Positions 41,888 to 58,730 of a stretch of DNA of 64,000 nucleotides are shown here, piece by piece (the stretch's first letter is position 1; each line of letters begins with the position of its first letter). The stretch lies in assembly GCA_028712895.1 (NCBI GenBank), contig JAQTPL010000006.1:239-64238 (forward strand), written 5' to 3'. The notes under the pieces were generated by a model, which had not been told where the DNA came from, did no database searches, and saw nothing but the letters and a program-made list of their open reading frames with translations. This DNA is from a bacterium (GTDB lineage Bacteria; CAYTYR01; UBA6262). The position numbers and the translations under genes are program-made.

Positions 41888-43894
41888 TTAGTTTTTTGGC
41901 AAAGTGAAAATGAATTTTGCCCCATTTCTGTTTCTTTTATCCCAGCTGAAAACCTCTTTATCCATAACCGGGCTTTCAACCCAGATCTTACCCCCGTGCA
42001 ACTCAACCAGCAGCTTGGAGATGGCCAAACCCAAGCCTGTCCCTATCACATGTTCAGCTTTGGCTTTAGCGGACCGGTAAAAACGGCCAAACATGTAGGG
42101 CAAGTCTTTCTCTTCTATACCGTAACCATTATCGATCACCTGCACTTCCAGGAATTTCCCAGTGTCTTTAAAGCCTATGATCACTTCTCCCTGATCAGGA
42201 GTATACTTAATGGCGTTGGTCAGTAAGTTAGTCAGGATTTGGGTCAGCTGGTTCTCATCAGCCAGGATAGCAGCCAATGGTTCTGCCGGAGGCAGGACAG
42301 TTACCCGTAATTTTTTCTCAATGATGGCCAGGCGCAGATTATGCAAAACCCCATGCACTGTTTTTTCAAGGTCCAACGGCGCTTTTTTCAATTCCACTTT
42401 GCCGGCTTCTATTTTAGACAGGTTTAATAAATTATTTATCAAATCTACCAGGCGTCTGGTATTCTGGCTAATGATCTCCATGAATTCTTTCTGGGTGGCA
42501 TTCAAAACCCCGGGTTCGCCCTGCACCAGCAGGTCGGTAAACCCCAGGATACTGGTCAATGGCGAACGCATTTCATGGCTGACCATGGCGATGAAGTCAC
42601 TTTTTGCCTGGCTTAACTCTACTAATTTCTCATTAGCCTTTTTTAAATGTTCATTAGCCCGGGCCAGATCACCGGTAGCAATATTGACCTTTTCTTCCAG
42701 GTTTTTGCTGAATTGCTGCGTCTGCTCATAAAGTTGCGCATTCTGCAGCACTACGGCCAACTGCCGGGCAAAAGCCATCAGGAAGTCAACCCTGTCCGGT
42801 GGGAAAGCTGCCCGGTTACTTGAGTTGATATTTAATACTCCTAATTTGCGGTCACCGATCAGGAGCGGGATATTGACCATAACCGCAATTTTTTCCTGGC
42901 TTAAAAGAGCGGCCAGGCTACTTTCAGCCTGATTAAAATCACGGATCACTAAGGGTTCATTATACAGCAGAGCTTTTTGCGCCATGTCTTCCAATAAGAC
43001 AATGCCGTTAGCATTGACAAAAGCAGTGGATAAGCCTTGGGTGCTGCGCATTTTAAAAAGCCCATCATCACCAACCAGGAAAATACTGCATGAAGACCCT
43101 TGCAGTTTCTCTATACTCATAGCCATGACCAGGTCAATGATCAAGGTAATATCCAAAGCCGCGGTCACCGCCCGCGACATTTCGAATAATAAGGTCAACT
43201 GTTGCTGGTTTTCCTCAACCTGGGAAATCATCTGGTTAAACTGCGCCGCCAGATACCCCAACTCATCATTTCCTAATTTTTCTACCCGGGTAGACAGGTC
43301 ACCGTTCTGTACCCGGCGCATAGCCTGCAATATTTTCCCGATACGGTTAAAGATCATCTGCTCGGAAACAATGAACATCACCAGGCCCAGCAATATGATC
43401 CCCAGGATAACGACCAGGAAGAGCACTTGTTTGACACTAGTCGTTAGCTCATCAGCTACCCGGTTAAGAGAATACCAGATCTTAATCGTTCCGGTGCGCT
43501 CGCTTTTATAATATATTGGGATCTGTACTTCTAGGGCCCCGTTAAAATTCTCATCTTTTTTATTGCTATGGATAATCGGTTTATTTTTTACATCGGAGAG
43601 CAGAATATAGAGAACATCCTTATCACTGCTGATCTCCTGTACATAGCGTTTAAGAATAGCCATATCTGATTCTTTAATTCCCTGGCGACTGACCTTAGCC
43701 AGGAAACTGGCATAATTCTTGCTTTTTTTACTGATATCGTCAGTGACTACCTGCCTGACCTGGTTGACCATAATAAACCCGATCAACATCATCAGTGGTA
43801 TTAAAACCAGCATCAAGGCAGCGACAAACTTAAAGCCCAGGGTAAACCTGATTTTTGACCTAACCTTTATATTCGTTTCATTATGCATGATCAC
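41888..43894 (-). CDS. Sensor histidine kinase (2 TM + HAMP + GAF + HisKA + HATPase)
   Basis: 668 aa. HAMP (RRVQNGDLSTRVE), GAF-like middle, H-box MVSHEMRSPLTSI, N/G boxes NLLTNAIKYTP, DNGYGIE, GTGLGLAISK. Confidence 0.9.
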   Translation of the reverse strand: MIMHNETNIKVRSKIRFTLGFKFVAALMLVLIPLMMLIGFIMVNQVRQVVTDDISKKSKNYASFLAKVSRQGIKESDMAILKRYVQEISSDKDVLYILLSDVKNKPIIHSNKKDENFNGALEVQIPIYYKSERTGTIKIWYSLNRVADELTTSVKQVLFLVVILGIILLGLVMFIVSEQMIFNRIGKILQAMRRVQNGDLSTRVEKLGNDELGYLAAQFNQMISQVEENQQQLTLLFEMSRAVTAALDITLIIDLVMAMSIEKLQGSSCSIFLVGDDGLFKMRSTQGLSTAFVNANGIVLLEDMAQKALLYNEPLVIRDFNQAESSLAALLSQEKIAVMVNIPLLIGDRKLGVLNINSSNRAAFPPDRVDFLMAFARQLAVVLQNAQLYEQTQQFSKNLEEKVNIATGDLARANEHLKKANEKLVELSQAKSDFIAMVSHEMRSPLTSILGFTDLLVQGEPGVLNATQKEFMEIISQNTRRLVDLINNLLNLSKIEAGKVELKKAPLDLEKTVHGVLHNLRLAIIEKKLRVTVLPPAEPLAAILADENQLTQILTNLLTNAIKYTPDQGEVIIGFKDTGKFLEVQVIDNGYGIEEKDLPYMFGRFYRSAKAKAEHVIGTGLGLAISKLLVELHGGKIWVESPVMDKEVFSWDKRNRNGAKFIFTLPKN

Positions 43895-44687
43895 CTTGAC
43901 TATAACCCTGATAATTCCAGGAAGCCTGGGTATATTTCCCCGCCGCTAATCGCCGGGCCAGCAGCAGCTCTGCCGCAGACAAATTGCCGGGCACAAAGTT
44001 GAGCTGTAACTCTGAGGCAAAACTTTGCTGGAAAACAGTACTGATCTCGGCTAAACTTATTTTTTGCTGCAGTACTTCTTCCAGGCCAGCGGCTTGCTGC
44101 CAGAAAACTGGCTCTCCCGCAGTGCGTAAAATCAAAGACCCCTGCTGGAGAATGATATCACGATAACGGCGCTGGGCACTACCACAAACTTTTTTACCGT
44201 TAATAAGCAGGTCATACTTGGTCGGATTATTGAAACAGAAAAAGTGATTATCTTTCCCCGCAAAAACACTTTCTGTGAGATTGACTTGGACGCCCAGGGC
44301 TAACAAGGCTTTTTGAATACAGGTAGCGATCACCCGGAAATATTCAACAGCTTGGTGCCGGTCCCGCAAGTCCTGGCGGCTGAAAATCACGCTAAAGGTA
44401 AATTCCTGATCGTGCAGCACAAACCCGCCGCCAGTAGGCCGGCGGATAAGTTCAATATTGTTTTGGCCGCATAAATCAGCCAAGGCCTGGTCAATACGCT
44501 GGAAATATCCCAGACTGATAGTCCGTCTTTGCCAGGAATATATCCGGAGCGTGGAAAGACTGTCTCCCTTTACACGCTGGTGCAAGATAGCTTCATCCAC
44601 AGCCATATTCCAAGCGCCATCCTGCGGCTCATCTACTAATAATCGCCATACTTTTTTATTCGTGTAATTAGCTGGCATTAGAGTCAT
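43881..44687 (-). CDS. Lipoate-protein ligase/octanoyltransferase family protein (LplA/LipM-like)
   Basis: 268 aa. NMAVDEAIL...LRIYSWQRRTISLGYFQ...RRPTGGGFVLHD...GKKVCGSAQRR (BPL_LplA_LipB pattern). Lies adjacent to the gcv genes. Confidence 0.85.
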   Translation of the reverse strand: MTLMPANYTNKKVWRLLVDEPQDGAWNMAVDEAILHQRVKGDSLSTLRIYSWQRRTISLGYFQRIDQALADLCGQNNIELIRRPTGGGFVLHDQEFTFSVIFSRQDLRDRHQAVEYFRVIATCIQKALLALGVQVNLTESVFAGKDNHFFCFNNPTKYDLLINGKKVCGSAQRRYRDIILQQGSLILRTAGEPVFWQQAAGLEEVLQQKISLAEISTVFQQSFASELQLNFVPGNLSAAELLLARRLAAGKYTQASWNYQGYSQGDHA

Positions 44688-44692
44688 TCGTG

Positions 44693-46528
44693 TTATTTCT
44701 TTAAAAAGGCAAAATCGAGTACCATGTTCAAGTATTTGTATTGCTTGGGTACGCTTTCAAAGGAGATGTATTGCATGGGTATTTTTTCTTTATCGAATAC
44801 ACTATGGATAGAACGGACAAATTCTCCTTCGATCAAATTATTAGATGGCGGCGGCCCCATCCAGATTACCAGATCAATTCCCTGGCTGCGGCACAAATCT
44901 ACCATTTCGCTAAAATTCAGGTTTGAACTAGGAGCATAAGTCTGGGCAAAAGTTTTATCCAATTTGAATTTGATCTTATGTTTTTTAATGGTCTCGGCAA
45001 AATTCTTGATCATCTGGTCAAGTTCTTTGTCCTTACCGGTAGGATAAATATATCCGGTCCGCAAATTATGGGCATCGTCTCCCCTCCCCGCTGCCGCCGG
45101 CTGTGGAGGAGCCTGTTCTGAAGCAGGTAGCGGTTCCGGCGCAGGAGCTGGCTCTGACTCTATTATAGGCGGTGGTTCCGGCTCTGTTACCGGAGGTTCA
45201 TAGGCTGGTATTTCCGGTTCAACTACCTGTTCCGCTGGTTGTTCAGGAGCAGCGGGAGCTGCCTCAGATGCGCTCACGATCTCCACCGGCTGGGTCGGCT
45301 CAAAAATAATCTCTGTTTTCTCTTCAATGATCTGGGTTAAGCTCTCTTCCAGTGGTGCTAGGGTACTCATTTCTATGCCCGTAGTTTCTTCCGGCAGCAA
45401 GTCTTGCAGTAACTCTTCGGCTAAAGACTTGTTTATTTGCCGGTTAGTCAAAGAAGCGTAAGCCACGATACGGATCAGGAATCCTTCCAATTCGCGGATA
45501 TTTGATTTTAACTGTTCGGCGATAAAATACATTACTTCATCTTCAATCTGTACTTTGGTGCTGTCCGCTTTTGCTTTCAGGATCGCCACCCTGGTTTCCA
45601 AATTCGGCGACTGGATATCGGTGATCAAACCCCATTCAAAACGGGAGCGTAACCGCTCTTCCAATACGGAAATTTTCTTCGGCGGCTTGTCGCTGGCAAT
45701 AACAATCTGTTTATGGTCATCATAAAGAGCATTGAATGTATGATAAAACTCTTCTTGGGCGGCTTCAGCCTCGGATAAAAACTGCACATCATCGATCAGC
45801 AAAACATCTATTTTGCGGTATTTATTCCTGAACTCTATTATTTTGCCGTAACGGATCGCGTCTATTACTTCAGCCATAAACCGTTCAGCAGTAGTGTACA
45901 GTACCTTTGCCGTAGAATCATTTTCCAGCACAAAATGGCCAATGGCCTGCATCAAATGGGTCTTCCCTAATCCGACATCTCCGTACATAAACAGCGGATT
46001 ATATACCTTGCCCGGCATCTCGGCCACGGCCAAAGCAGCAGCCTTGGCAAAGTGATTGCTTTTCCCGACTACAAAAGTATCAAAGGTATAGCGCGGGTTT
46101 AAGCCTATTTCAGAAAACAAAGCTAGTTTCTGTTCTTCGGTCAATACTGGTTTGGTCGCTGTTTCAGCAATGGGAGAAGCAGCAATGGGAGCTGTTCCGG
46201 TAATCTCCCTGTTTATATCTTCATCAATTAAATTGTTTTCCTCTACCGGCGGTAAATATTTGGAAAAATCAAAATTGTCCGGACTTTCCTTAAAATCCTT
46301 CACTATCTCATATATTTTCTCCCGATCATCAACTTCCAGCTGATAGATATAAAATGACCAGTTGTAATCCTTCTCCCGCAAAGAGGTAGTCCTGCCGCAA
46401 CTGTAATTAAGCTTGGTTAGTACATTAGATAATTTAATGCCATCTTCCCTGTCGCCTTGCAGGACTATTTTCCAGCGGCTAGGATAATCAGCAGTAAAGC
46501 TTTCGACAAGGTCCCATTTTGTAATCAT
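44693..46528 (-). CDS. Chimeric protein: novel N-domain + DnaA-type AAA+ (domain III) + Pro/Glu-rich linker + novel C-domain; no DnaA domain IV
   Basis: 611 aa. [15 protein letters not shown], Walker [11 protein letters not shown], Walker [31 protein letters not shown] (DnaA domain III set). Residues ~405-480 are P/E/A-rich. Termini are homologous to ORF 51034..51966. GAGG SD lies before ATG 46528. Confidence 0.85.
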
Positions 46529-46580: not shown

Positions 46581-48032
46581 TCATGTTAATAATGTATCCC
46601 TTCCTTTTTCATATTTTAAAATAAGCTGCCGGCCGGCACGGGCTTCATCGATCCGCCCAACCGGACTGGTCAACGGTGCTTTCTTCAACAGTTCCGGATT
46701 TTGTACTGCTTCTGCCGCAAGCTGTTCCAAGGCTTGAATAAAAGTATCCATGGTTTCCTTAGTCTCGGTTTCTGTCGGTTCTATCATCATGGCCTCATGG
46801 ACAATAAGCGGAAAATAGATCGTCGGTGGATGGAACCCGTAATCAATTATCCTCTTGGCAATATCCAGGGTACTGACTGACCAGGCCTGGTGAGGCGTCA
46901 TGACAAATTCATGCATACAGGTCCGGTGATAAGGAACCGGATAAAACTTTGCCAATTTATGCATTAAATAATTGGCGTTCAGCACGGCCTGACGCCCGAC
47001 CTTGGCTATGCCCTCTGCCCCCAGGGCCAAAAAATAAGCATACGCCCGGACCGCAATCAGGAAATTGCCATAAAAAGAGCGGACTTTGCCGATACTGTTG
47101 GCTTGCCGATACTCCCAAAAATAATTTTTCCCTTTTTTTATAACCTGTGGTACCGGTAAAAACGGGATAAGGTCTTTACTTGTGCCCACTGCTCCGGCAC
47201 CTGGCCCGCCACCGCCATGCGGAGTGGAAAATGTCTTGTGCAGGTTGAAATGCATTACATCAAAACCCAGTTCTGCAGGCTTGACCAATCCTAACAAAGC
47301 ATTAAAGTTCGCGCCGTCGCCATATAATAATGCCCCATTTTTATGGACCAGGTGGCTTATCTCAAGAATATTTTTTTCAAACAATCCCAAAGTATTCGGA
47401 TTTGTTAACATCAACGCGGCAACATCCAGGCCCAGATTCTGCTGCAAATCCTCAAGGTCAATATCACCTTGATTGTCACTCTTCACTTGCCTGACCTGGT
47501 ACCCGGCTAAAGCCGCCGTAGCCGGATTCGTGCCATGAGCGGTATCCGGGACAAGTATCACGTTTCGCTTTTGTTCCGGTTGGTTCTTCTGGTGATATGC
47601 TTTGATGAGCAAAATACCGGTTATTTCCCCATGCGCTCCGGCGGCGGGCTGCAAAGTCATCCCTGAAAATCCGCTGACTTCTTTTAGAAAACTCTCTAGC
47701 TCATAGATTATTTTCAAGGCGCCTTGTACACATTCTTCGGGAGAATAGGGATGGATCCCGGCCAAGCCATCAAAATCAGCTACTGTTTCATTTACCTTAG
47801 GATTATACTTCATAGTGCATGAACCTAAAGGATAAAAACCATTGTCTACGCTATAATTCAATTTGGAGAGAGCCGTAAAATGCCTGATTACATCTTGCTC
47901 ACAGGTTTGAGGTAAAGTTACTTCTTCTGCTCCTAAAAATTCGGCCGGTATATGTTTATTCACCGCTGCCGGATCGGCAGCAGGCACATAACTTGTTGGC
48001 TGTGAATGGTATTCAAAAATCACTTTTTCCAA
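46581..48032 (-). CDS. gcvPB: Glycine dehydrogenase (decarboxylating) subunit 2
   Basis: 483 aa, TTG start behind AGAGG. PLP-lysine region NLHKTFSTPHGGGGPG is typical of GcvPB. Confidence 0.95.
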   Translation of the reverse strand: MEKVIFEYHSQPTSYVPAADPAAVNKHIPAEFLGAEEVTLPQTCEQDVIRHFTALSKLNYSVDNGFYPLGSCTMKYNPKVNETVADFDGLAGIHPYSPEECVQGALKIIYELESFLKEVSGFSGMTLQPAAGAHGEITGILLIKAYHQKNQPEQKRNVILVPDTAHGTNPATAALAGYQVRQVKSDNQGDIDLEDLQQNLGLDVAALMLTNPNTLGLFEKNILEISHLVHKNGALLYGDGANFNALLGLVKPAELGFDVMHFNLHKTFSTPHGGGGPGAGAVGTSKDLIPFLPVPQVIKKGKNYFWEYRQANSIGKVRSFYGNFLIAVRAYAYFLALGAEGIAKVGRQAVLNANYLMHKLAKFYPVPYHRTCMHEFVMTPHQAWSVSTLDIAKRIIDYGFHPPTIYFPLIVHEAMMIEPTETETKETMDTFIQALEQLAAEAVQNPELLKKAPLTSPVGRIDEARAGRQLILKYEKGRDTLLT

Positions 48033-48050
48033 TTAAATAACCTCTTTAAT

Positions 48051-48085
48051 TAGCGTATAGCGTATAGCGTGTAGCGTATAGCGTA
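48051..48085. repeat. One-armed tandem heptamer array (TAGCGTA)x5 between gcvPA and gcvPB
   Basis: TAGCGTA TAGCGTA TAGCGTG TAGCGTA TAGCGTA (+TAGG) in exact 7-nt phase with one substitution. On the mRNA strand this is (UAUACGC)n, ending 5 nt before the AGAGG SD of gcvPB. No inverted partner nearby. Confidence 0.85.
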
Positions 48086-48095
48086 TAGGAAAACA

Positions 48096-49436
48096 CTAAT
48101 TCTTTTCTTTTAAGATACGGACCAGGGTGTCGATCTCGGCTTTGGTTCTTTTTTCAGTGACGCAGAATAATAATGACTTTTTAAGTTCCGGATAATATTT
48201 TTTCAACGGTAAACCGCCGATTATATTTTTTCTTAACAGCTTTTTATTCAAGGCCTCTATATTCCCGGGCGCTGTGGCTACAAATTCATTAAAAAAAGCA
48301 GTTTTAAAATTAATTTTCCAGCCTGGTATCCTGGCTACAGCAGCAGCCAGATAATGGGCTCCGGACAAAGAGGCAGTAGCCACATCTTTTAAGCCGGCAG
48401 CACCCATAGAGGAGAGATAAACACAAGCACTTAACGCGCATAAAGCCTCATTGGAACAGATATTACTGGTAGCTCGTTCACGGGGGATATGCTGTTCCCT
48501 GGTCTGTAAGGTCAGCACATAAGCACGTTGTCCCCTGTTGTCAATACTTTCTCCTACTATCCGTCCAGGCATTTTGCGCATGAATTCCTGGCGGCAGGCA
48601 AAAATTCCCAAGTACGGCCCGCCAAAAGAAACCGGTAGTCCCAATGATTGCCCTTCACCCGTAACGATATCAGCGCCGTATTCTGCCGGTTTTTGTAAAA
48701 CACCCAGGCTAACCGGGTAAATGCTGGTGACAAACAAGGCTCCCTGCTTATGGGCCATGGCCCCCAGCTGCTGGACATGTTCCAGGCAGCCGAAAAAATT
48801 CGGCTGCTGCACAACAACAGCTGCCACCTGGTCATTTAACTGGCTTTTCAAGGCAGCCAGGTCGATCAGACCTTCAATAAAAGGTATTTCCTTAATGCTA
48901 ATCCGTGAATTTTTTAAATATGTATGCACTACCTGGCGGTATTCCGGGTGAATGGCCTTAGCCACCAGGACTATATTCCTCTGGGTATGCTCACAAGCCA
49001 GGTGAATTGCCTCATAAAGCGCCGTGGCGCCATCATAGAGGCTGGCATTAGCTACGTCCATCCCGGTCAGGTTACAGATCATCGTCTGGTATTCAAAGAT
49101 CGATTGCAAGGTGCCTTGGCTTATTTCCGGCTGATAAGGAGTATACGCAGTATAAAATTCCCCCCGTTTGGTAATCACCGGTACAGTGCTGGGAATATAA
49201 TGATCATAAGCACCTGCACCTAAAAAACAGCTAAAGTCGGCTACACTGGCGTTTTGACCGGCTACTTCCCGTAGCTGCTTTTTAACTTCCAACTCACTGC
49301 CAGCAGGTGGTAACGCTAAACAGTGGCGAATGATCTTATCTTGCGGAATATCCTTCAAAAGATCTTCTGTTGAAGCTATGCCTAACGCCTGCAACATATC
49401 CTTATTATCAGCATCGGTATTGCCTATATAGTCCAT
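48096..49436 (-). CDS. gcvPA: Glycine dehydrogenase (decarboxylating) subunit 1
   Basis: 446 aa. FLGAGAYDHYIP...YTPYQPEISQG.LQ..FE.Q pattern of GcvPA. Confidence 0.95.
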   Translation of the reverse strand: MDYIGNTDADNKDMLQALGIASTEDLLKDIPQDKIIRHCLALPPAGSELEVKKQLREVAGQNASVADFSCFLGAGAYDHYIPSTVPVITKRGEFYTAYTPYQPEISQGTLQSIFEYQTMICNLTGMDVANASLYDGATALYEAIHLACEHTQRNIVLVAKAIHPEYRQVVHTYLKNSRISIKEIPFIEGLIDLAALKSQLNDQVAAVVVQQPNFFGCLEHVQQLGAMAHKQGALFVTSIYPVSLGVLQKPAEYGADIVTGEGQSLGLPVSFGGPYLGIFACRQEFMRKMPGRIVGESIDNRGQRAYVLTLQTREQHIPRERATSNICSNEALCALSACVYLSSMGAAGLKDVATASLSGAHYLAAAVARIPGWKINFKTAFFNEFVATAPGNIEALNKKLLRKNIIGGLPLKKYYPELKKSLLFCVTEKRTKAEIDTLVRILKEKN

Positions 49437-49438
49437 AA

Positions 49439-49828
49439 CTACTTAGATCCCTCACTGATTAACTTTTCATATTCTTCCGCGGACAGCAAGCTAGATAATT
49501 CCGTGGGAGCAGCTAAAGCTATTTTAATCATCCAGCCGTTAGTGTATGGTTCTTTATTGACCAATTCAGGCTGCTTGCCCAAAGCCTCATTGACACTGAC
49601 CACCATACCGCTGACCGGACTGAACAGATCACTGACCGCTTTTACGCTTTCAGCCACGCCAAAAGATTCTTGCTGTTTCAATTGTCGTTCTACCTTGGGT
49701 AATTCAACAAAGACGATGTCTCCCAGTTCTTCCTGGGCATAATCAGTAATGCCGATTACTATTGTATTATTGCCCACCGCTTTTACCCATTCATGGGATT
49801 TGCTGTATTTCAAGTCCTTTGGAACCAT
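49439..49828 (-). CDS. gcvH: Glycine cleavage system H protein
   Basis: 129 aa. Lipoyl-lysine context VAESVKAVSDLFSPVSG, N-terminal Y.KSHEWV. Confidence 0.95.
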   Translation of the reverse strand: MVPKDLKYSKSHEWVKAVGNNTIVIGITDYAQEELGDIVFVELPKVERQLKQQESFGVAESVKAVSDLFSPVSGMVVSVNEALGKQPELVNKEPYTNGWMIKIALAAPTELSSLLSAEEYEKLISEGSK

Positions 49829-49844
49829 TAAAACCTCCGGTATT

Positions 49845-49930
49845 AGCTTATTGCTCTTAGCTCATAGGTCGTAGGAAAATCTACTGATTTCTTTTTTTTC
49901 CTGCGAGCTACCAGCTACGAGCTACGAACT
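49845..49930. repeat. Intercistronic heptad-word hairpin, AGCTC family (copy 2)
   Basis: 31-nt arms 49845-49875 (AGCTTAT TGCTCTT AGCTCAT AGGTCGT AGG) and 49900-49930 (..GAGCTAC CAGCTAC GAGCTAC GAACT). 22 Watson-Crick + 2 G.U of 31 by hand. The 24-nt loop carries a T-run. Fills the gcvT-gcvH spacer. Confidence 0.75.
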
Positions 49931-49936
49931 GATTTA

Positions 49937-51037
49937 TTAGTCGCGAACATGGCTGGGGACAAAAGGCGTTTTTACTATTGTTGCCGGATATTTTTCTCCC
50001 CTGATCTCGATATTCAGCTTATTATCTAATGCAGCTTCAGCTAATCTGATATATCCCAGGCAAATACTTTTAGCCAAGGTTGGGGAAAATGTCCCGCTGG
50101 TAACCTGACCTACTATCTTCCCGTCTTGGTTAAAGATATGGAATCCATGGCGAGCGATCTGCCGGCCTTGCATGGTCAGACCAGCCAGCTTGCGTGATAG
50201 CCCGGCCTTTTTTATTTGTTCCAGGCTGGTCTTGCCAATAAAATTATCCTTCTCCAATTTTACTGCCCAGTCCAACCCAGCTTTTAGCGGATTAGTATCC
50301 TGGTCAATATCATTTCCGTACAGGGAATATTTCATTTCCAACCGCAAAATATCCCTGGCTCCCAAACCACAGGGGATGGCTCCCTGGTCAATAATGCTTT
50401 GCCAGATTTTTTCTGTATCTGGCTCCGGTTCAGGCTGGGCAAAATAAAATATTTCATAGCCTAGCTCTCCGGTATATCCGGTACGGGAAATAGTCACTGG
50501 CTTGCCGGCGACCTGCCCCTTAGCAAAATGCAAATAATCCAAAACGGCAATCTCTGGCCCGGCCAGTTTGACCATGATATCCCTGGCGCCAGGACCCTGC
50601 AGCGAAATCAGTGAAGTGCTTTCGGAAATATCATTCAACATCACATCATAAAAACTTTTTTGTTCCATCAGGTACTGGTAATCTTTTTCTGTATTCGCGG
50701 CATTTACCACCAATAGATAATTATGCCGGCTGATCTTATTAATGAACAAGTCGTCCACAATGCCGCCGTGATCATAACACATGAGACTGTAAAGACAATC
50801 TCCCGGCGCCATTACTGACACATCATTGGTCATTACCTGCTGCAGAAATTTTTCCGCCTGGTCACCGATAACGGTGATCTCTCCCATATGACAAATATCA
50901 AAGAGACCGGCTTTTTTCCGTACTGCCCAATACTCATCGATAATACTGCTATATTGCACCGGCATCAACCACCCGCCAAACTCAATCAAGCGGGCTTTAT
51001 GCTGCTGGTGCCAATGATAAAGTTTAGTTTGTTTCAA
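49937..51037 (-). CDS. gcvT: Aminomethyltransferase (glycine cleavage T protein)
   Basis: 366 aa. GGWLMPVQY, AGLFDICHMG, ISRTGYTGELGYEI motifs. Confidence 0.95.
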   Translation of the reverse strand: MKQTKLYHWHQQHKARLIEFGGWLMPVQYSSIIDEYWAVRKKAGLFDICHMGEITVIGDQAEKFLQQVMTNDVSVMAPGDCLYSLMCYDHGGIVDDLFINKISRHNYLLVVNAANTEKDYQYLMEQKSFYDVMLNDISESTSLISLQGPGARDIMVKLAGPEIAVLDYLHFAKGQVAGKPVTISRTGYTGELGYEIFYFAQPEPEPDTEKIWQSIIDQGAIPCGLGARDILRLEMKYSLYGNDIDQDTNPLKAGLDWAVKLEKDNFIGKTSLEQIKKAGLSRKLAGLTMQGRQIARHGFHIFNQDGKIVGQVTSGTFSPTLAKSICLGYIRLAEAALDNKLNIEIRGEKYPATIVKTPFVPSHVRD

Positions 51038-51966
51038 TCCTGGAAATCCCCGATCCCCCGCCCTTTGAATAAGGCGATATCAACGACCACGCTGACAAAT
51101 GTGGTTCTTAAGGCCATTTTACTGAGCGCGATCGCTTTGATCAGCACTTTCCGTTTCTTAGGCATTTTTTTAAGTAACGCCGCCAGGTTTCTAGCCTCAG
51201 GGAAAACCTGGTAATTGGGAATAAAAATCAAAAACGCTTCAATATTAAATCCCTGGTAAATTTCTACCAGATTGGCCAGATCCAACTGGGCCCTGAGAGG
51301 ATAGTTATCATCAAAAACATTTTCCAGGCTGAAAGGATGATGTTTCACTGTTTTTAAAACATCCGTTAATCCGGCGAGAAAAAGGCGGGCATTTTCCTGT
51401 TCTCCTTCGGGATATAAAATGCCAACTTTGACTTCATCTTCCTTCGGCACCAGTAACTCTTCCGGCAAATCTTTTTCCTTTTTCAGATACATCGGCTGGA
51501 TCCGGCCGACTTCCAGGGGAATCGGTTCCTCAGTCTCCTGGCCGGGCATCCTGATATCCCCGGGCAAAACAACATTCTTATGCTTGAGCGCTTCTTTGGC
51601 TTCAGCTTTACTGATCCCGCGATCGGATAAATCCTTGATCACCCCGCCAATTTCCCGGGCCAGGTTATCAGCTCTTTCCGGTGCGCCTGTTTTCTTTTTT
51701 GCCTCTGGTAATTCCTGGGCGTCAGCCACGGAAAGCCGCTTCATGAATTTTTCTACTTCCAACCGGGTTTCTTTACTGGACGTATTCAGATAAAAACCCC
51801 AATTATAATCGCCGCGAGCAGCTTTGAGTTGAAAAGGAGGCTGACAAACTTTCTCAAATTTTCCCACCACCCTAAGAACATCTTCACGATCCCCATTAAT
51901 CGATACCAGGTAGCGGTCCTGGTGTTTGTCGTCAAAATAAGATTCTATTTTCCAGCGGATAATCAT
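51034..51966 (-). CDS. Uncharacterised protein, paralogue of the N- and C-terminal domains of the DnaA-like chimera
   Basis: 310 aa. N-terminus MIIRWKIESYF..RYLVSINGDREDVLRV...GDYNWGFYL aligns with [27 protein letters not shown]...KDYNWSFYI. The C-terminal ~120 aa also align. Start overlaps the pilT stop (TAATG); stop overlaps the gcvT start (ATGA). Confidence 0.75.
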   Translation of the reverse strand: MIIRWKIESYFDDKHQDRYLVSINGDREDVLRVVGKFEKVCQPPFQLKAARGDYNWGFYLNTSSKETRLEVEKFMKRLSVADAQELPEAKKKTGAPERADNLAREIGGVIKDLSDRGISKAEAKEALKHKNVVLPGDIRMPGQETEEPIPLEVGRIQPMYLKKEKDLPEELLVPKEDEVKVGILYPEGEQENARLFLAGLTDVLKTVKHHPFSLENVFDDNYPLRAQLDLANLVEIYQGFNIEAFLIFIPNYQVFPEARNLAALLKKMPKKRKVLIKAIALSKMALRTTFVSVVVDIALFKGRGIGDFQD

Positions 51967-53075
51967 TATTTATCCCTCTTGCTTTGGTTATTATTTTCAT
52001 CAACTCCGGTGTAAATACCCCGAACGCTCAACATGAGTTCATCCGGATTAGTAGCATTATCCAGAGCATCTTCCAGGGAGATCTTCCCTTCTTTGTACAA
52101 ATTTAAAAGCGACAGATCAAATGATTGCATGCCGTAAAAAGCTCCCTGTTGCATAGCGGTATAAATACCGGCATCCTTGCCTTCGGCAATCAATTTTCTG
52201 ACAAAAGGGGTAACTGTCAGGATCTCGATGGCCGGGATCCGGCCTTCCTGATCGACCCGCGGGATCAGACGCTGCGCAATAATACCACGCAGGATCTGGC
52301 TGAGCGTCATTCTGATCTGGGTTTGCTGATGCGGAGAATACATATCAACAATACGGTTGACGGTATGGACAGCATCGATAGTGTGAACCGTGGAAATAAC
52401 CAAGTGCCCGGTTTCTCCCCCCATAATAGCGGCATTGACTGTTTCAAAATCTCTCATTTCCCCGATCACGATGACATCCGGGTCCTGGCGCAAGACATGT
52501 TTCAGCGCCTGGCCGAAAGACTTGGTATCGCTGCCCACTTCCCGCTGGCTGACCGTGCTCATTTTATCATTATGATAAAACTCAACGGGATCCTCGATCG
52601 TAATAATATTAGAGCGGCGGGTGGAATTAATAAAATCGATCATAGTGTTTAGGGTAGTAGTTTTACCGGCACCGGTAATCCCGGCAATCAAAATAAGACC
52701 GCGGTTATGGCTGGTTATTTTACGCATCGTTTCGCTGGGCAGGTTTAATTCTTCAAAGGTTTTAGGCGAGGGAGGAATAACCCGCAAACTTAACGCGATC
52801 CCGCCTTTTTGCCGGTATAAGTTGACCCGAAAACGAGATACTCCCTCTACTTCGTAGCCAAGGTCTAGTTCATCATCTTTCTCGAATTTTTTTTGTTGTT
52901 TCTCATTCATCAGGTTATAGGCCAGCTGTTCGATATTCTCGCTGGTTAAAGGACTGGATTCAGCAGCCATTAGTTTACCATTAAACCGCAGCATAGGAGG
53001 ACTGCCTGCTTTGAAGTGAATATCTGAGATACTGCGTTTGACCATCAGTTGCAAGAGATCGTCAACATTCATCAT
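51966..53075 (-). CDS. pilT: PilT-family type IV pilus retraction ATPase
   Basis: 369 aa. GLILIAGITGAGKTTT (Walker A), IITIEDPVEF, DPDVIVIGEMRD (Walker B/Asp box), GHLVISTVHT (His box). Confidence 0.9.
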   Translation of the reverse strand: MMNVDDLLQLMVKRSISDIHFKAGSPPMLRFNGKLMAAESSPLTSENIEQLAYNLMNEKQQKKFEKDDELDLGYEVEGVSRFRVNLYRQKGGIALSLRVIPPSPKTFEELNLPSETMRKITSHNRGLILIAGITGAGKTTTLNTMIDFINSTRRSNIITIEDPVEFYHNDKMSTVSQREVGSDTKSFGQALKHVLRQDPDVIVIGEMRDFETVNAAIMGGETGHLVISTVHTIDAVHTVNRIVDMYSPHQQTQIRMTLSQILRGIIAQRLIPRVDQEGRIPAIEILTVTPFVRKLIAEGKDAGIYTAMQQGAFYGMQSFDLSLLNLYKEGKISLEDALDNATNPDELMLSVRGIYTGVDENNNQSKRDK

Positions 53076-54465: not shown

Positions 54466-55221
54466 TTATAGGTCAAAAGTAACTATTTTGCTGAATGACT
54501 CGGGTTCCAGGCTGGCTCCGCCGACTAAGGCCCCATCTATATCCGCCTGTCCCATAAGTTCTTTGCTATTCTCCGGTTTAACGCTGCCGCCATACAAGAT
54601 CCTGATCTCTTCAGCTACAGCCGGAGCATATATTTCTGCTAATTTTTGGCGGATAAACTTGTGCGCTTCCTCAGCCTGCTGCGGAGTGGCTGTTTTGCCG
54701 GTACCGATAGCCCATACTGGCTCATAAGCAACCACTAATTTCCTAGCCTCTTCAGCGCTTAAGCCGCTGGCACCTTCACGGATCTGGCGTTCCAATACTG
54801 TGAAAGTCTCACTGCTTTCCCTTTCAGCCAGTGTTTCCCCGATACAAACAATGGGTAATAGTCCTGACAGGAAAGCTTTTTTCATTTTTTTATTGACCGT
54901 GGCATCAGTCTCGCCAAAGTATTGCCGGCGTTCAGAATGCCCAATGATCACATAGGTACAGCCGGTATCTCTCAGCATCCCCGGGGCAATCTCCCCGGTA
55001 AAAGCGCCTTTGTCTTCCCAATACATATTTTGGGCGCCTAATTTCAGGTTGGAGCCCTTCATGGATTCAGCCGCAATAGCTAAACTGGTAAAGGGCGGAC
55101 AGACTACCACTTCCCGGTCACTCAGCTTCCCTACCCGGCTGGCTAAACCTTCAACCAGGGCTTTAGCCTCCTGGGTATTTTTGTACATTTTCCAATTACC
55201 TGCAAGGATGGGTTTACGCAA
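54466..55221 (-). CDS. tpiA: Triosephosphate isomerase
   Basis: 251 aa. AGNWKMY, IIGHSERR, AYEPVWAIGTG, YGGSV. Confidence 0.95.
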   Translation of the reverse strand: MRKPILAGNWKMYKNTQEAKALVEGLASRVGKLSDREVVVCPPFTSLAIAAESMKGSNLKLGAQNMYWEDKGAFTGEIAPGMLRDTGCTYVIIGHSERRQYFGETDATVNKKMKKAFLSGLLPIVCIGETLAERESSETFTVLERQIREGASGLSAEEARKLVVAYEPVWAIGTGKTATPQQAEEAHKFIRQKLAEIYAPAVAEEIRILYGGSVKPENSKELMGQADIDGALVGGASLEPESFSKIVTFDL

Positions 55222-58101: not shown

Positions 58102-58175
58102 TGGCGCCAACGGGACTCGAACCCGTAAGCTCTGCCTTGAGAGGGCAGCGTCCTAACCAATTAGACGATGGCGCC
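58102..58175 (-). tRNA. tRNA-Glu (anticodon CUC)
   Basis: Hand-folded cloverleaf: GGCGCCA/UGGCGCC acceptor, GUCU/GGAC D-stem, CUGCC-CUCUCAA-GGCAG anticodon arm, ACGGG-UUCGAGU-CCCGU T-arm. 74 nt; CCA not encoded. Confidence 0.85.
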
Positions 58176-58657: not shown

Positions 58658-58730
58658 CTGCCCGGCCTGGACTCGAACCAGGAGACTTCTGCTCCAGAGG
58701 CAGACGTGTTACCAATTACACCACCGGGCA
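58658..58730 (-). tRNA. tRNA-Gln (anticodon CUG)
   Basis: Hand-folded: UGCCCGG/CCGGGCA acceptor, GUGU/ACAC D-stem, UCUGC-CUCUGGA-GCAGA anticodon arm, CCUGG-UUCGAGU-CCAGG T-arm. 73 nt. A 9-bp hairpin (58634-58654) follows 3 nt downstream. Confidence 0.85.

What the first reader, a model, noticed from the sequence alone, without database searches (positions are those of the whole stretch)
51034..51966. A 310-aa paralogue shares both terminal domains of the DnaA-like protein, and the two bracket the glycine-cleavage genes
By eye the N-termini align: MIIRWKIESYFDDKHQDRYLVSINGDREDVLRVVGKF...ARGDYNWGFYL against [37 protein letters not shown]...[11 protein letters not shown]. The C-terminal ~120 residues also align: ILYPEGEQ..FSLENVF..IEAFLIFIP..VLIKAI..VDIALFK against [39 protein letters not shown]. 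The short protein is therefore N + linker + C, and the long one is N + linker + DnaA-AAA+ + Pro-linker + C. The short gene is translationally coupled on both sides: its ATG overlaps the pilT stop (TAATG, 51964-51968) and its stop overlaps the gcvT start (ATGA, 51034-51037). The N-domain pattern (hydrophobic strand, G-D-R-E-D turn, amphipathic helix, ~80 aa) recalls ACT/ferredoxin-like small-ligand domains. Because E. coli GcvR is an ACT-type glycine-responsive regulator, one hypothesis is amino-acid (glycine) sensing. This is inference only.
Basis: partly seen in the sequence, partly recalled or inferred. Interest (0 to 1): 0.75.

Follow-up and report, generated by a model that had tools for sequence, protein, structure and literature searches.

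The report
ATPase-less twin of an unusual DnaA
The 310-residue protein is a real, conserved relative of a neighbouring DnaA-like protein that shares both of its end domains but lacks the ATPase; the pair is old and specific to the phylum Elusimicrobiota, and the glycine-cleavage genes between them were inserted later in one lineage, so a glycine-sensing role is unlikely.

Summary
ORF 51034-51966(-) encodes a 310-aa protein under purifying selection. Its N domain (1-80) and C domain (176-301) are homologous to the two ends of the 611-aa DnaA-like protein at 44693-46528(-): hhalign E 8.6e-22 and about 1e-12.

The glycine reading does not hold. Among 45 loci (mostly Elusimicrobiota MAGs) with pilT and the DnaA-like gene on one strand, the usual order is pilT, then 0-2 short partners, then the DnaA-like gene. 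Only one monophyletic clade (12 loci, some redundant) has gcvTHPAPB inserted. Four loci have gcvH alone.

The long protein keeps DnaA domain III (about 60% identical to canonical DnaA). It lacks domains I and IV and one conserved lysine.

Best reading: the short protein is a partner or regulator of this DnaA variant, acting through the shared end domains. This step is inferred. I could not determine whether a canonical DnaA also exists in these genomes.

The parts
51034..51966 (-). ORF310, the short partner: N domain, conserved helix, linker with short invariant motifs, MID-like C domain, invariant tail
   Evidence: ORF. 19 homologous clusters, all about 310 aa. Alignment A1. Excess of third-codon-position changes. 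No Pfam, NCBIfam or PADLOC family.
51727..51966 (-). N domain of ORF310 (residues 1-80), strand-strand-helix-strand-helix, generic ACT/ferredoxin-like fold
51583..51672 (-). Conserved helix region (residues 99-128, 'LAREIGGVIKDL...GISKAEAKEALK') inside a linker that is otherwise predicted disordered
   Evidence: Invariant A103, E105, G107, I110, G117, E122. Helices 99-116 and 120-128 in the model. A similar helix motif sits at the N-terminus of distant short partners and inside the fused L020 protein. The motif similarity is not statistically significant (hhalign E 0.22).
51064..51441 (-). C domain of ORF310 (residues 176-301), four strand-helix units, Argonaute-MID-like Rossmann fold
51037..51063 (-). 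Invariant C-terminal tail GRGIGDFQ (residues 302-310), specific to this clade of short partners
   Evidence: G302, R303, G304, I305, G306, D307 and F308 are invariant in 19 sequences. The tail is absent from the DnaA-like proteins and from the distant short partners.
44693..46528 (-). DnaA-like protein (611 aa): N domain, DnaA domain III (AAA+), Pro/Glu-rich linker, MID-like C domain. No DnaA domain I or IV.
   Evidence: Pfam shows only PF00308, residues 143-304. TIGR00362 scores 372.9 bits, covering only model positions 83-349 of 437. About 86 full-length relatives; those that carry an organism name are Elusimicrobiota/Endomicrobiia, and none has PF08299. A local domain IV HMM gives no hit.
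46283..46528 (-). N domain of the DnaA-like protein (residues 1-82)
45365..46102 (-). DnaA domain III (AAA+, residues 143-388). Walker A and [11 protein letters not shown] and NIRELEG are kept. The canonical 'GKE' lysine after Walker B is lost.
44696..45079 (-). MID-like C domain of the DnaA-like protein (residues 484-611)
   Evidence: PADLOC PprPIWI/pAgo HMM hits at model positions about 330-450 of about 670, best E 1e-6. hhalign to the ORF310 C domain.
51966..53075 (-). pilT (PilT/PilU-family ATPase). Its stop codon overlaps the ORF310 start.
   Evidence: TIGR01420 scores 444 bits against a cutoff of 319. pilT lies upstream of the pair in 45 loci.
46581..51037 (-). gcvT, gcvH, gcvPA and gcvPB: a lineage-specific insertion between the two paralogues
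   Evidence: ORFs. Pfam families in the syntenic locus L001. Present only in one clade. No glycine riboswitch in the window.
43881..44687 (-). lplA-like lipoate-protein ligase directly downstream of the DnaA-like gene. Found only in the clade that carries gcv.
   Evidence: Pfam PF21948 E 8e-33. Synteny table.

Best explanation
ORF310 is the ATPase-less member of an old gene pair restricted to Elusimicrobiota.

The long member is a DnaA variant. It keeps DnaA domain III. In place of domain I it has an ~80-residue ACT/ferredoxin-like N domain. In place of the DNA-binding domain IV it has an Argonaute-MID-like Rossmann domain.

The short member has a conserved helix, a flexible linker and the same MID-like C domain. 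In several lineages, including this one, it also has the same N domain. In the ancestral arrangement the short gene lies directly upstream of the DnaA-variant gene and downstream of pilT. In the window's lineage the glycine-cleavage genes, and lplA downstream, were inserted around the DnaA-variant gene. That is why the two paralogues appear to bracket gcv.

Most likely mechanism (inferred, not shown): the short protein works with the DnaA variant. It would do so either by co-assembling with it through the shared N and/or C domains, or by occupying the same ligand or partner as those domains without supplying ATPase activity. Either way it would tune the assembly or activity of the AAA+ oligomer.

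Shown: the homology, the folds, the synteny, the taxonomic restriction and the purifying selection. Inferred: a physical interaction, a regulatory direction, and what the MID-like and N domains bind.
For: Homology of both end domains:
- BLASTP E 5e-8 and 0.002.
- hhalign E 8.6e-22 for N and 1.2e-12 for C.
- Position-specific HMM hits in 73-86 DnaA-like proteins and none in canonical DnaAs.

Ancient adjacency:
- In Endomicrobiia and other classes the order is pilT, short ORF, DnaA-like gene, with no gcv.
- Those short ORFs share the C domain. Group E: hhalign probability 96%, E 4.5e-9. Group F, upstream of DnaA-like genes that lack N: probability 92%, E 5.7e-7. Their stops abut or overlap the DnaA-like start.
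- Some loci carry two tandem short partners (L048, L059, L063).

Fusion and fission:
- L020 has no separate short ORF. Its 922-aa DnaA-like protein carries two N domains plus the helix motif.
- At several loci a DnaA-like gene without its own N domain is preceded by an N-bearing protein (L034, L045, L063).

Age of the duplication:
- In an NJ tree the N domains of short partners form clades apart from all DnaA-like N domains.
- In the same tree the gcv-context loci are monophyletic.

Folds:

Restriction and selection:
- The N profile finds only 190 clusters among 1.84 billion representatives. Of the best 150, 46 are N+AAA+C and 25 are N+C without AAA+.
- Third codon positions carry most differences between orthologues.
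Against: - There is no direct evidence of interaction. Complex prediction could not be run.
- The similarity of the helix motif between partner types is not significant (E 0.22).
- Nine loci have no short partner between pilT and the DnaA-like gene, so the partner is dispensable in some lineages.
- Conserved synteny here also includes unrelated housekeeping genes (tpiA, rpiB, deoC, proS). Adjacency alone is therefore weak evidence of a functional link.
- The basic residues that are invariant in ORF310's C domain (K266, K270-K273, R287) are not conserved in the DnaA-like C domain. Only Y185, P186 and D296 are invariant across both. The two C domains may not bind the same ligand.
- I could not establish whether the DnaA variant is the replication initiator, so what would be regulated is unknown.
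Confidence: 0.5

Rival explanations
1. ORF310, and the N domain of the DnaA-like protein, sense glycine or another amino acid through an ACT-like N domain and regulate the glycine-cleavage genes they bracket.
For: - ORF310 overlaps the gcvT start.
- No glycine riboswitch is found anywhere in the window, so gcv expression here is not under that common control.
- A neighbouring clade keeps gcvH between pilT and the DnaA-like gene (L016, L017, L022, L044).
- lplA, which lipoylates GcvH (established knowledge), lies just downstream of the DnaA-like gene in the gcv clade only.
Against: - The gcv linkage is limited to one monophyletic clade (12 of 45 loci, some redundant) plus 4 loci with gcvH only. 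The pair is conserved without gcv in 29 loci across other classes.
- An orthologue in a gcv context (P0018) lacks the N domain.
- ORF310 matches no Pfam, NCBIfam or PADLOC family, so no known DNA- or RNA-binding output domain was detected.
- No ACT Pfam model matches.
Confidence: 0.1
2. The pair belongs functionally to PilT. It would act as an accessory or regulatory module of type IV pilus retraction or DNA uptake, possibly tied to c-di-GMP signalling. The MID-like domain would bind nucleic-acid ends or a nucleotide. The N domain would be a shared docking or sensor module.
For: - pilT lies directly upstream on the same strand in 45 loci, and its stop overlaps the ORF310 start here.
- In Endomicrobiia a GGDEF diguanylate cyclase at the same locus carries the same N domain (L040, L053, L057, P0377).
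- From established knowledge: MID domains bind the 5' nucleotide of a guide strand, and PilT powers pilus retraction, which some bacteria use for DNA uptake.
Against: - Several lineages keep the DnaA-like gene, or the pair, without an adjacent pilT (L018, L019, L023, L026, L033, L037, L041, L049, L050).
- No other pilus genes are seen in the conserved block.
- Neighbouring conserved genes are unrelated housekeeping genes.
- The AAA+ domain is about 60% identical to canonical DnaA, which fits a replication-type role better.
Confidence: 0.2
3. An anti-phage or mobile-element defence module related to prokaryotic Argonaute systems, suggested by the MID-like domain and the AAA+ ATPase.
For: The C domain of the DnaA-like protein matches pAgo/PIWI models in PADLOC. 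MID is the best fold match.
Against: - There is no PIWI, APAZ, nuclease, TIR or SIR2 partner. The PADLOC hits cover only the MID region.
- The locus sits at a fixed housekeeping position and is monophyletic with the phylum. Defence islands are typically patchy and mobile.
- ORF310 has no PADLOC hit.
Confidence: 0.05
4. ORF310 is a decaying partial duplicate of the DnaA-like gene with no function of its own.
For: It looks like the long protein with the AAA+ domain removed.
Against: - Length is conserved at about 310 aa in 19 clusters, with 47 invariant positions, several of them in the linker.
- Differences between orthologues are strongly biased to third codon positions.
- Short-type N domains form old clades separate from DnaA-like N domains.
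- 25 distinct clusters at 50% identity have the N+C architecture.
Confidence: 0.02

Closest known systems
DnaA, bacterial replication initiator (TIGR00362; Pfam PF11638 + PF00308 + PF08299)
   Same: The long paralogue has a full DnaA domain III, about 60% identical to canonical DnaAs. Walker A and B, the [10 protein letters not shown] box and the NIRELEG sensor II box are all present. It scores above the TIGR00362 cutoff. Public annotation calls it DnaA.
   Different: - It has no domain I (PF11638) and no DNA-binding domain IV (PF08299). The ends are instead an ACT/ferredoxin-like N domain and a MID-like C domain.
- The lysine of the canonical 'GKE' motif after Walker B is absent in all 87 family members. 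Two conserved asparagines in the preceding helix are also lost.
- The gene is not at a GC-skew switch, and no dnaN was seen among the called genes around it.
- ORF310 itself has no AAA+ domain at all.
Hda/HdaA (DnaA-related AAA+ protein without a DNA-binding domain; regulatory inactivation of DnaA)
   Same: Both are DnaA-family AAA+ proteins that lack domain IV.
   Different: The long paralogue scores 112.6 bits against TIGR03420, whose cutoff is 194.8, so it fails. It is much closer to DnaA proper. It also carries extra N and C domains that Hda lacks. The N-terminal clamp-binding motif that defines Hda function was not looked for.
Argonaute/PIWI MID domain
   Different: - No PIWI domain follows it.
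- The basic residues typical of the 5'-phosphate pocket are not visibly conserved across the family. The shared invariants are Y185, P186 and D296.
- There is no sequence hit to solved MID chains.
- I found no paper describing a MID-like domain fused to DnaA.
ACT and RAM small-ligand-binding regulatory domains
   Different: - The strand order is strand-strand-helix-strand-helix with three strands, not the strand-helix-strand-strand-helix-strand order of ACT.
- No Pfam ACT match.
- GcvR was not compared directly.

Membership tests
DnaA (applies to the long paralogue; ORF310 only by homology of its end domains) | AAA+ domain III with the DnaA-specific boxes | tested here: met
   For the long paralogue: PF00308 E 5e-71 and TIGR00362 372.9 bits against a cutoff of 343.9, with the motifs retained. 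ORF310 has no AAA+ domain.
DnaA (applies to the long paralogue; ORF310 only by homology of its end domains) | C-terminal helix-turn-helix domain IV that binds DnaA boxes (PF08299) | tested here: not met
   No PF08299 in the window protein or in about 86 relatives. A local domain IV HMM matches only the first ~25 model positions, at E > 0.06.
DnaA (applies to the long paralogue; ORF310 only by homology of its end domains) | N-terminal domain I (PF11638) | tested here: not met
   No PF11638. The N domain has a different strand-strand-helix-strand-helix topology.
DnaA (applies to the long paralogue; ORF310 only by homology of its end domains) | Acts as the chromosomal replication initiator at oriC | not testable with these tools
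   There is no GC-skew switch in the 64-kb window. I could not check whether a canonical DnaA exists elsewhere in these genomes. The attempt through the best canonical hit, P0106, led to Gaiellaceae.
Hda / HdaA | Match to the Hda equivalog models above their cutoffs | tested here: not met
   TIGR03420 scores 112.6 bits against a cutoff of 194.8. The other Hda models score at most 53 bits.
Argonaute MID domain | Rossmann-like fold of four strand-helix units that superposes on MID | tested here: met
Argonaute MID domain | Sequence-profile similarity to the MID region of Argonautes | tested here: met
   For the DnaA-like C domain: 9 of 29 members hit PprPIWI and 7 of 29 hit pAgo models, best E 1e-6, at model positions about 330-450 of about 670. 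ORF310 itself has no direct hit and is linked only through hhalign.
Argonaute MID domain | Conserved 5'-phosphate-binding pocket residues (Y/R/H-K-Q-K type) | tested here: inconclusive
   No structure-based residue alignment was possible. Across both paralogue families only Y185, P186 and D296 are invariant. The basic residues K266, K270-273 and R287 are invariant only within ORF310's own clade.
Argonaute MID domain | Followed by a PIWI domain in the same protein | tested here: not met
   The C domain ends the protein in both paralogues.
ACT domain / GcvR-type glycine-responsive regulator | Match to ACT sequence models and the strand-helix-strand-strand-helix-strand topology | tested here: not met
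ACT domain / GcvR-type glycine-responsive regulator | Conserved genomic or functional linkage to gcv genes | tested here: not met
   gcvTHPAPB is present in 12 of 45 loci, all in one clade. 29 loci have no gcv gene in the interval.
ACT domain / GcvR-type glycine-responsive regulator | Binds glycine or another amino acid | not testable with these tools
   This needs binding assays.

The most novel reading that the evidence does not exclude
In Elusimicrobiota the chromosomal initiator itself may have been rebuilt. DnaA would have kept its ATPase core, swapped the DnaA-box-binding domain IV for an Argonaute-type MID domain, and swapped domain I for an ACT-like module. ORF310-type proteins would be built-in decoys or adaptors that carry the same two end modules without the ATPase and control initiation. 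This would be a phylum-wide, non-canonical way to recognise or license a bacterial origin. It might work through a nucleic-acid end or a nucleotide ligand bound by the MID-like domain.
Probability: 0.2. Interest if true: 0.85.

Novelty: new variant of a known kind. Interest (0 to 1): 0.6.

Why it matters
DnaA is one of the most conserved bacterial proteins, and its four-domain plan is treated as universal. Here a whole phylum carries a protein that pipelines label 'DnaA'. It has the ATPase core but neither the DNA-binding domain nor domain I. Instead it has a MID-like domain otherwise known from Argonautes. It is paired with an ATPase-less paralogue that shares both end modules.

If this is the phylum's initiator, origin recognition there must work differently. 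If it is an accessory paralogue, it is a new DnaA-derived machine with an unknown job next to PilT.

Either way, the annotation 'chromosomal replication initiator protein DnaA' for this family should be treated with caution. The short partner family and its two domains have no entry in Pfam, NCBIfam or PADLOC.

The case also shows that 'bracketing' of an operon by paralogues can be an insertion artefact rather than a functional clue.

Tried and rejected
1. Whether these genomes also hold a canonical DnaA.
   - My last homologue search used P0106, the best-scoring canonical DnaA. Its named relatives are Gaiellaceae (Actinomycetota), so it says nothing about Elusimicrobiota.
   - A local domain IV HMM found nothing in about 1.2 Mb of related loci, but those loci cover only the neighbourhood.
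2. Literature.
   - I found nothing on this family or on DnaA-MID fusions.
   - The only relevant remark is that dnaA is a pseudogene in 'Ca. Endomicrobium trichonymphae' Rs-D17 (PMC5174739).
   - The two original genome papers are not held, and the supplements held nothing.
3. The AFDB50 fold library was unavailable.
4. A sequence search of PDB with the C-domain profile gave only noise: CFAP115 E 0.17, LuxP E 0.3, TLR2 TIR E 0.46.
5. Pfam and NCBIfam hits for ORF310 (DUF4258 E 0.011, VOC E 0.06) are below their cutoffs and were dismissed.
6. Rfam found no glycine riboswitch and no other regulatory RNA, only two tRNAs.
7. Promoter and terminator scans were not above the shuffled controls, so I make no operon-boundary claim.
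8. The cumulative GC skew is monotonic, so there is no origin or terminus in the window.
9. The helix motif shared by the short partner types aligns in register but is not significant (hhalign E 0.22). I keep it only as a lead.
10. A mixed full-length profile (A3) picked up Walker A signal from misaligned linker columns. I therefore used the N-only alignment A4 for the exhaustive search.
Full report
**What is in the window.** On the minus strand the genes run tpiA (54466-55221), rpiB, deoC, pilT (51966-53075), ORF310 (51034-51966), gcvT, gcvH, gcvPA, gcvPB (46581-51037), a 611-aa DnaA-like gene (44693-46528) and an lplA-like gene (43881-44687). The ORF310 start overlaps the pilT stop as TAATG.

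- BLASTP aligns residues 1-60 of ORF310 with residues 1-61 of the long protein (32% identity, E 5e-8). It aligns residues 143-301 with 470-610 (18% identity, E 0.002), and the two matches are colinear.
- ORF310 has 19 homologous clusters, nearly all about 310 aa (alignment A1).
- The long protein has about 86 full-length relatives. Those that carry an organism name are Elusimicrobiota or Endomicrobiia, all are labelled DnaA where labelled, and none has the DnaA C-terminal domain PF08299.
- Profiles of the short family's N and C regions hit the first ~78 residues and the last ~125 residues of these relatives. They do not hit canonical DnaAs.
- hhalign gives E 8.6e-22 (probability 99.4%) for N and E 1.2e-12 to 2.8e-14 (probability about 98%) for C.
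- Differences between ORF310 orthologues fall mostly at third codon positions, so the gene is under purifying selection.

**The surroundings in other genomes.**
- Close relatives at 54-91% identity have exactly the window's gene order.
- More distant genomes do not. In two Endomicrobiia-type contigs the order is rpiB, deoC, (GGDEF), pilT, a 228-282-aa unannotated ORF, the DnaA-like gene, proS, rimP, nusA, infB, with no gcv genes.
- A scan of one genome per species with the C-domain alignment returned 67 loci. Most are labelled Elusimicrobiota, and the rest carry generic or other labels.
- I called ORFs in all loci and marked them with local HMMs and BLAST. Among 45 loci with pilT and the DnaA-like gene on one strand:

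| Content of the interval between pilT and the DnaA-like gene | Loci |
|---|---|
| ORF310-type gene plus gcvTHPAPB (includes the window; some contigs redundant) | 12 |
| gcvH only | 4 |
| One or two short ORFs only | 20 |
| Nothing | 9 |

- The short ORFs of the distant groups are homologous to the same C domain. Group E: probability 96%, E 4.5e-9 against the DnaA-like C domain, and E 2e-7 against the ORF310 C domain. Group F, which precedes DnaA-like genes lacking their own N domain: probability 92%, E 5.7e-7.
- In a neighbour-joining tree of N domains the gcv-context loci form one clade. The N domains of short partners form two clades separate from all DnaA-like N domains.
- My conclusion is that the short-plus-long pair is old and that the gcv genes, with lplA downstream, entered once. 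The 'bracketing' is an insertion into a pre-existing pair.

**The domains.**
- *ORF310 model.* An AF2 model of ORF310 is confident for residues 1-80 and 178-300 and disordered between them, apart from helices at 99-128.
- *Independent sequence support.* The C domain of the DnaA-like family matches pAgo/PIWI HMMs of PADLOC at model positions about 330-450 of about 670. From established knowledge of long pAgo layout, that is where MID lies. The best E is 1e-6, and 9 and 7 of 29 members hit the two best models. The C module is therefore a MID-like domain.
- *Pocket residues.* Whether it keeps the 5'-phosphate pocket is open. Only Y185, P186 and D296 are invariant across both paralogue families. 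The basic residues K266, K270-273 and R287 are invariant only within ORF310's own clade.
- *Distribution of the N domain.* An exhaustive HMMER search of 1.84 billion representative proteins with the N profile found only 190 hits at E <= 0.001, always at residues 1-80. The best 150 break down as follows:

| Architecture among the best 150 hits | Count |
|---|---|
| N + AAA+ + C | 46 |
| N + C without AAA+ (244-491 aa) | 25 |
| N + AAA+ with weak or missing C | 25 |
| N + GGDEF | 1 |
| Other, mostly short proteins under 265 aa, plus two long repetitive proteins (878 and 2050 aa; the 878-aa one matches only low-complexity families) | 53 |

- *GGDEF fusion.* The same N-GGDEF gene sits between deoC and pilT in several Endomicrobiia loci.

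**The long paralogue.**
- Its AAA+ domain is about 60% identical to canonical DnaAs of other phyla. That is as close as it is to DnaA-like proteins of other Elusimicrobiota classes (about 56%).
- Walker A and [11 protein letters not shown] and NIRELEG are retained. The lysine of the canonical 'GKE' motif after Walker B is absent in all 87 members, and two conserved asparagines in the preceding helix are lost. From published work on DnaA, these segments contact single-stranded DNA. This is my recollection, not something tested here.
- There is no domain I or domain IV.
- The window has a monotonic GC skew, so no origin lies nearby.
- I could not find out whether a canonical DnaA exists elsewhere in these genomes. 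The literature held here says only that dnaA is a pseudogene in Rs-D17.

**How it most likely works.**
- The pair shows fusion and fission behaviour. L020 lacks a separate short gene, and its 922-aa DnaA-like protein carries two N domains plus the partner's helix motif. At several loci a DnaA-like gene without its own N domain is preceded by an N-bearing protein whose stop abuts its start.
- Together with the old adjacency and the two shared end modules, this supports a model in which the short protein acts with the DnaA variant. It would either co-assemble through the N and/or C domains or compete for what those domains bind, without contributing ATPase activity.
- This step is inference, and I put it at about 0.5.

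**Rivals.**
- A PilT or c-di-GMP-linked role: 0.2.
It is kept alive only by the ACT-like fold, the missing glycine riboswitch and the gcvH-only clade.
- A defence module: 0.05.
- A decaying duplicate: 0.02.

**Novelty.** I found no paper describing this family or a DnaA-MID fusion. No Pfam, NCBIfam or PADLOC family covers ORF310. I rate it a new variant of a known kind. The bolder reading, a rebuilt initiator for a whole phylum, remains open at about 0.2.

Noticed in passing
L040:5362-6795; also L053:4211-5656, L057:5168-6592, L006:6683-8035: A GGDEF diguanylate cyclase of about 475 aa encoded next to deoC, upstream of pilT, in Endomicrobiia-type loci. It starts with the same N domain as the DnaA-like protein. 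In the N-domain tree its N domains nest within the Endomicrobiia DnaA-like N domains.
   Followed up: partly
L020:7613-10381: A 922-aa DnaA-like protein with two tandem N domains (residues 5-81 and 116-186) and a helix 'RLDALLEKVAKGLEQV' like that of the short partners. No separate short ORF follows pilT at this locus. It looks like a fusion of partner and DnaA variant.
   Followed up: partly
L016:1554-1952, L017:6589-6987, L022:3639-4037, L044:7702-8100: In one clade a lone 132-aa gcvH homologue sits between pilT and a longer (709-755 aa) DnaA-like gene, with no short partner and no gcvT or gcvP. It may be a remnant of the gcv insertion or a separate event.
   Followed up: no
proteins P0323 (497 aa) and P0286 (419 aa): N domain plus DnaA AAA+, followed by CxxC...CxxC zinc-ribbon-like repeats instead of the MID-like C domain. 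This is a third type of C-terminal end in the family.
   Followed up: no
L013:9539-10405 (same MAG, UBA6262, as L010): A 288-aa protein with a basic, unrelated N-terminal half and a C domain about 65% identical to the DnaA-like C domain, encoded elsewhere in the genome. It appears to be a further stand-alone copy of the MID-like module.
   Followed up: partly
window 45365-46102 (DnaA-like AAA+): The lysine of the 'GKE' motif just after Walker B is conserved in at least 95% of the canonical DnaAs compared, and it is replaced in all 87 DnaA-like proteins. Two conserved asparagines in the preceding helix are also lost.
   Followed up: partly
window 1-64000: Rfam finds only two tRNAs (58102-58175 and 58658-58730, minus strand). 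There is no glycine riboswitch, although a complete gcvTHP set is present.
   Followed up: yes
L009, L011, L018, L021, L022, L023, L026, L032, L035, L044, L047 (record titles): Several MAGs that carry this otherwise Elusimicrobiota-specific locus are titled 'uncultured Clostridia bacterium', 'Clostridia bacterium' or 'Ignavibacteria bacterium'. These are probably taxonomic mislabels in the records.
   Followed up: no
L001:5941-6072, L003:1882-2013, L005:321-452: A 43-aa ORF is called at the same place (after an HD-domain gene; before BioY in L001 and L003, before tpiA in L005) in several related contigs. It has no family assignment.
   Followed up: no
L005:3635-4348 (P0018): An ORF310 orthologue of 237 aa lacks the whole N domain, yet it still starts at the pilT stop and ends at the gcvT start.
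   Followed up: partly
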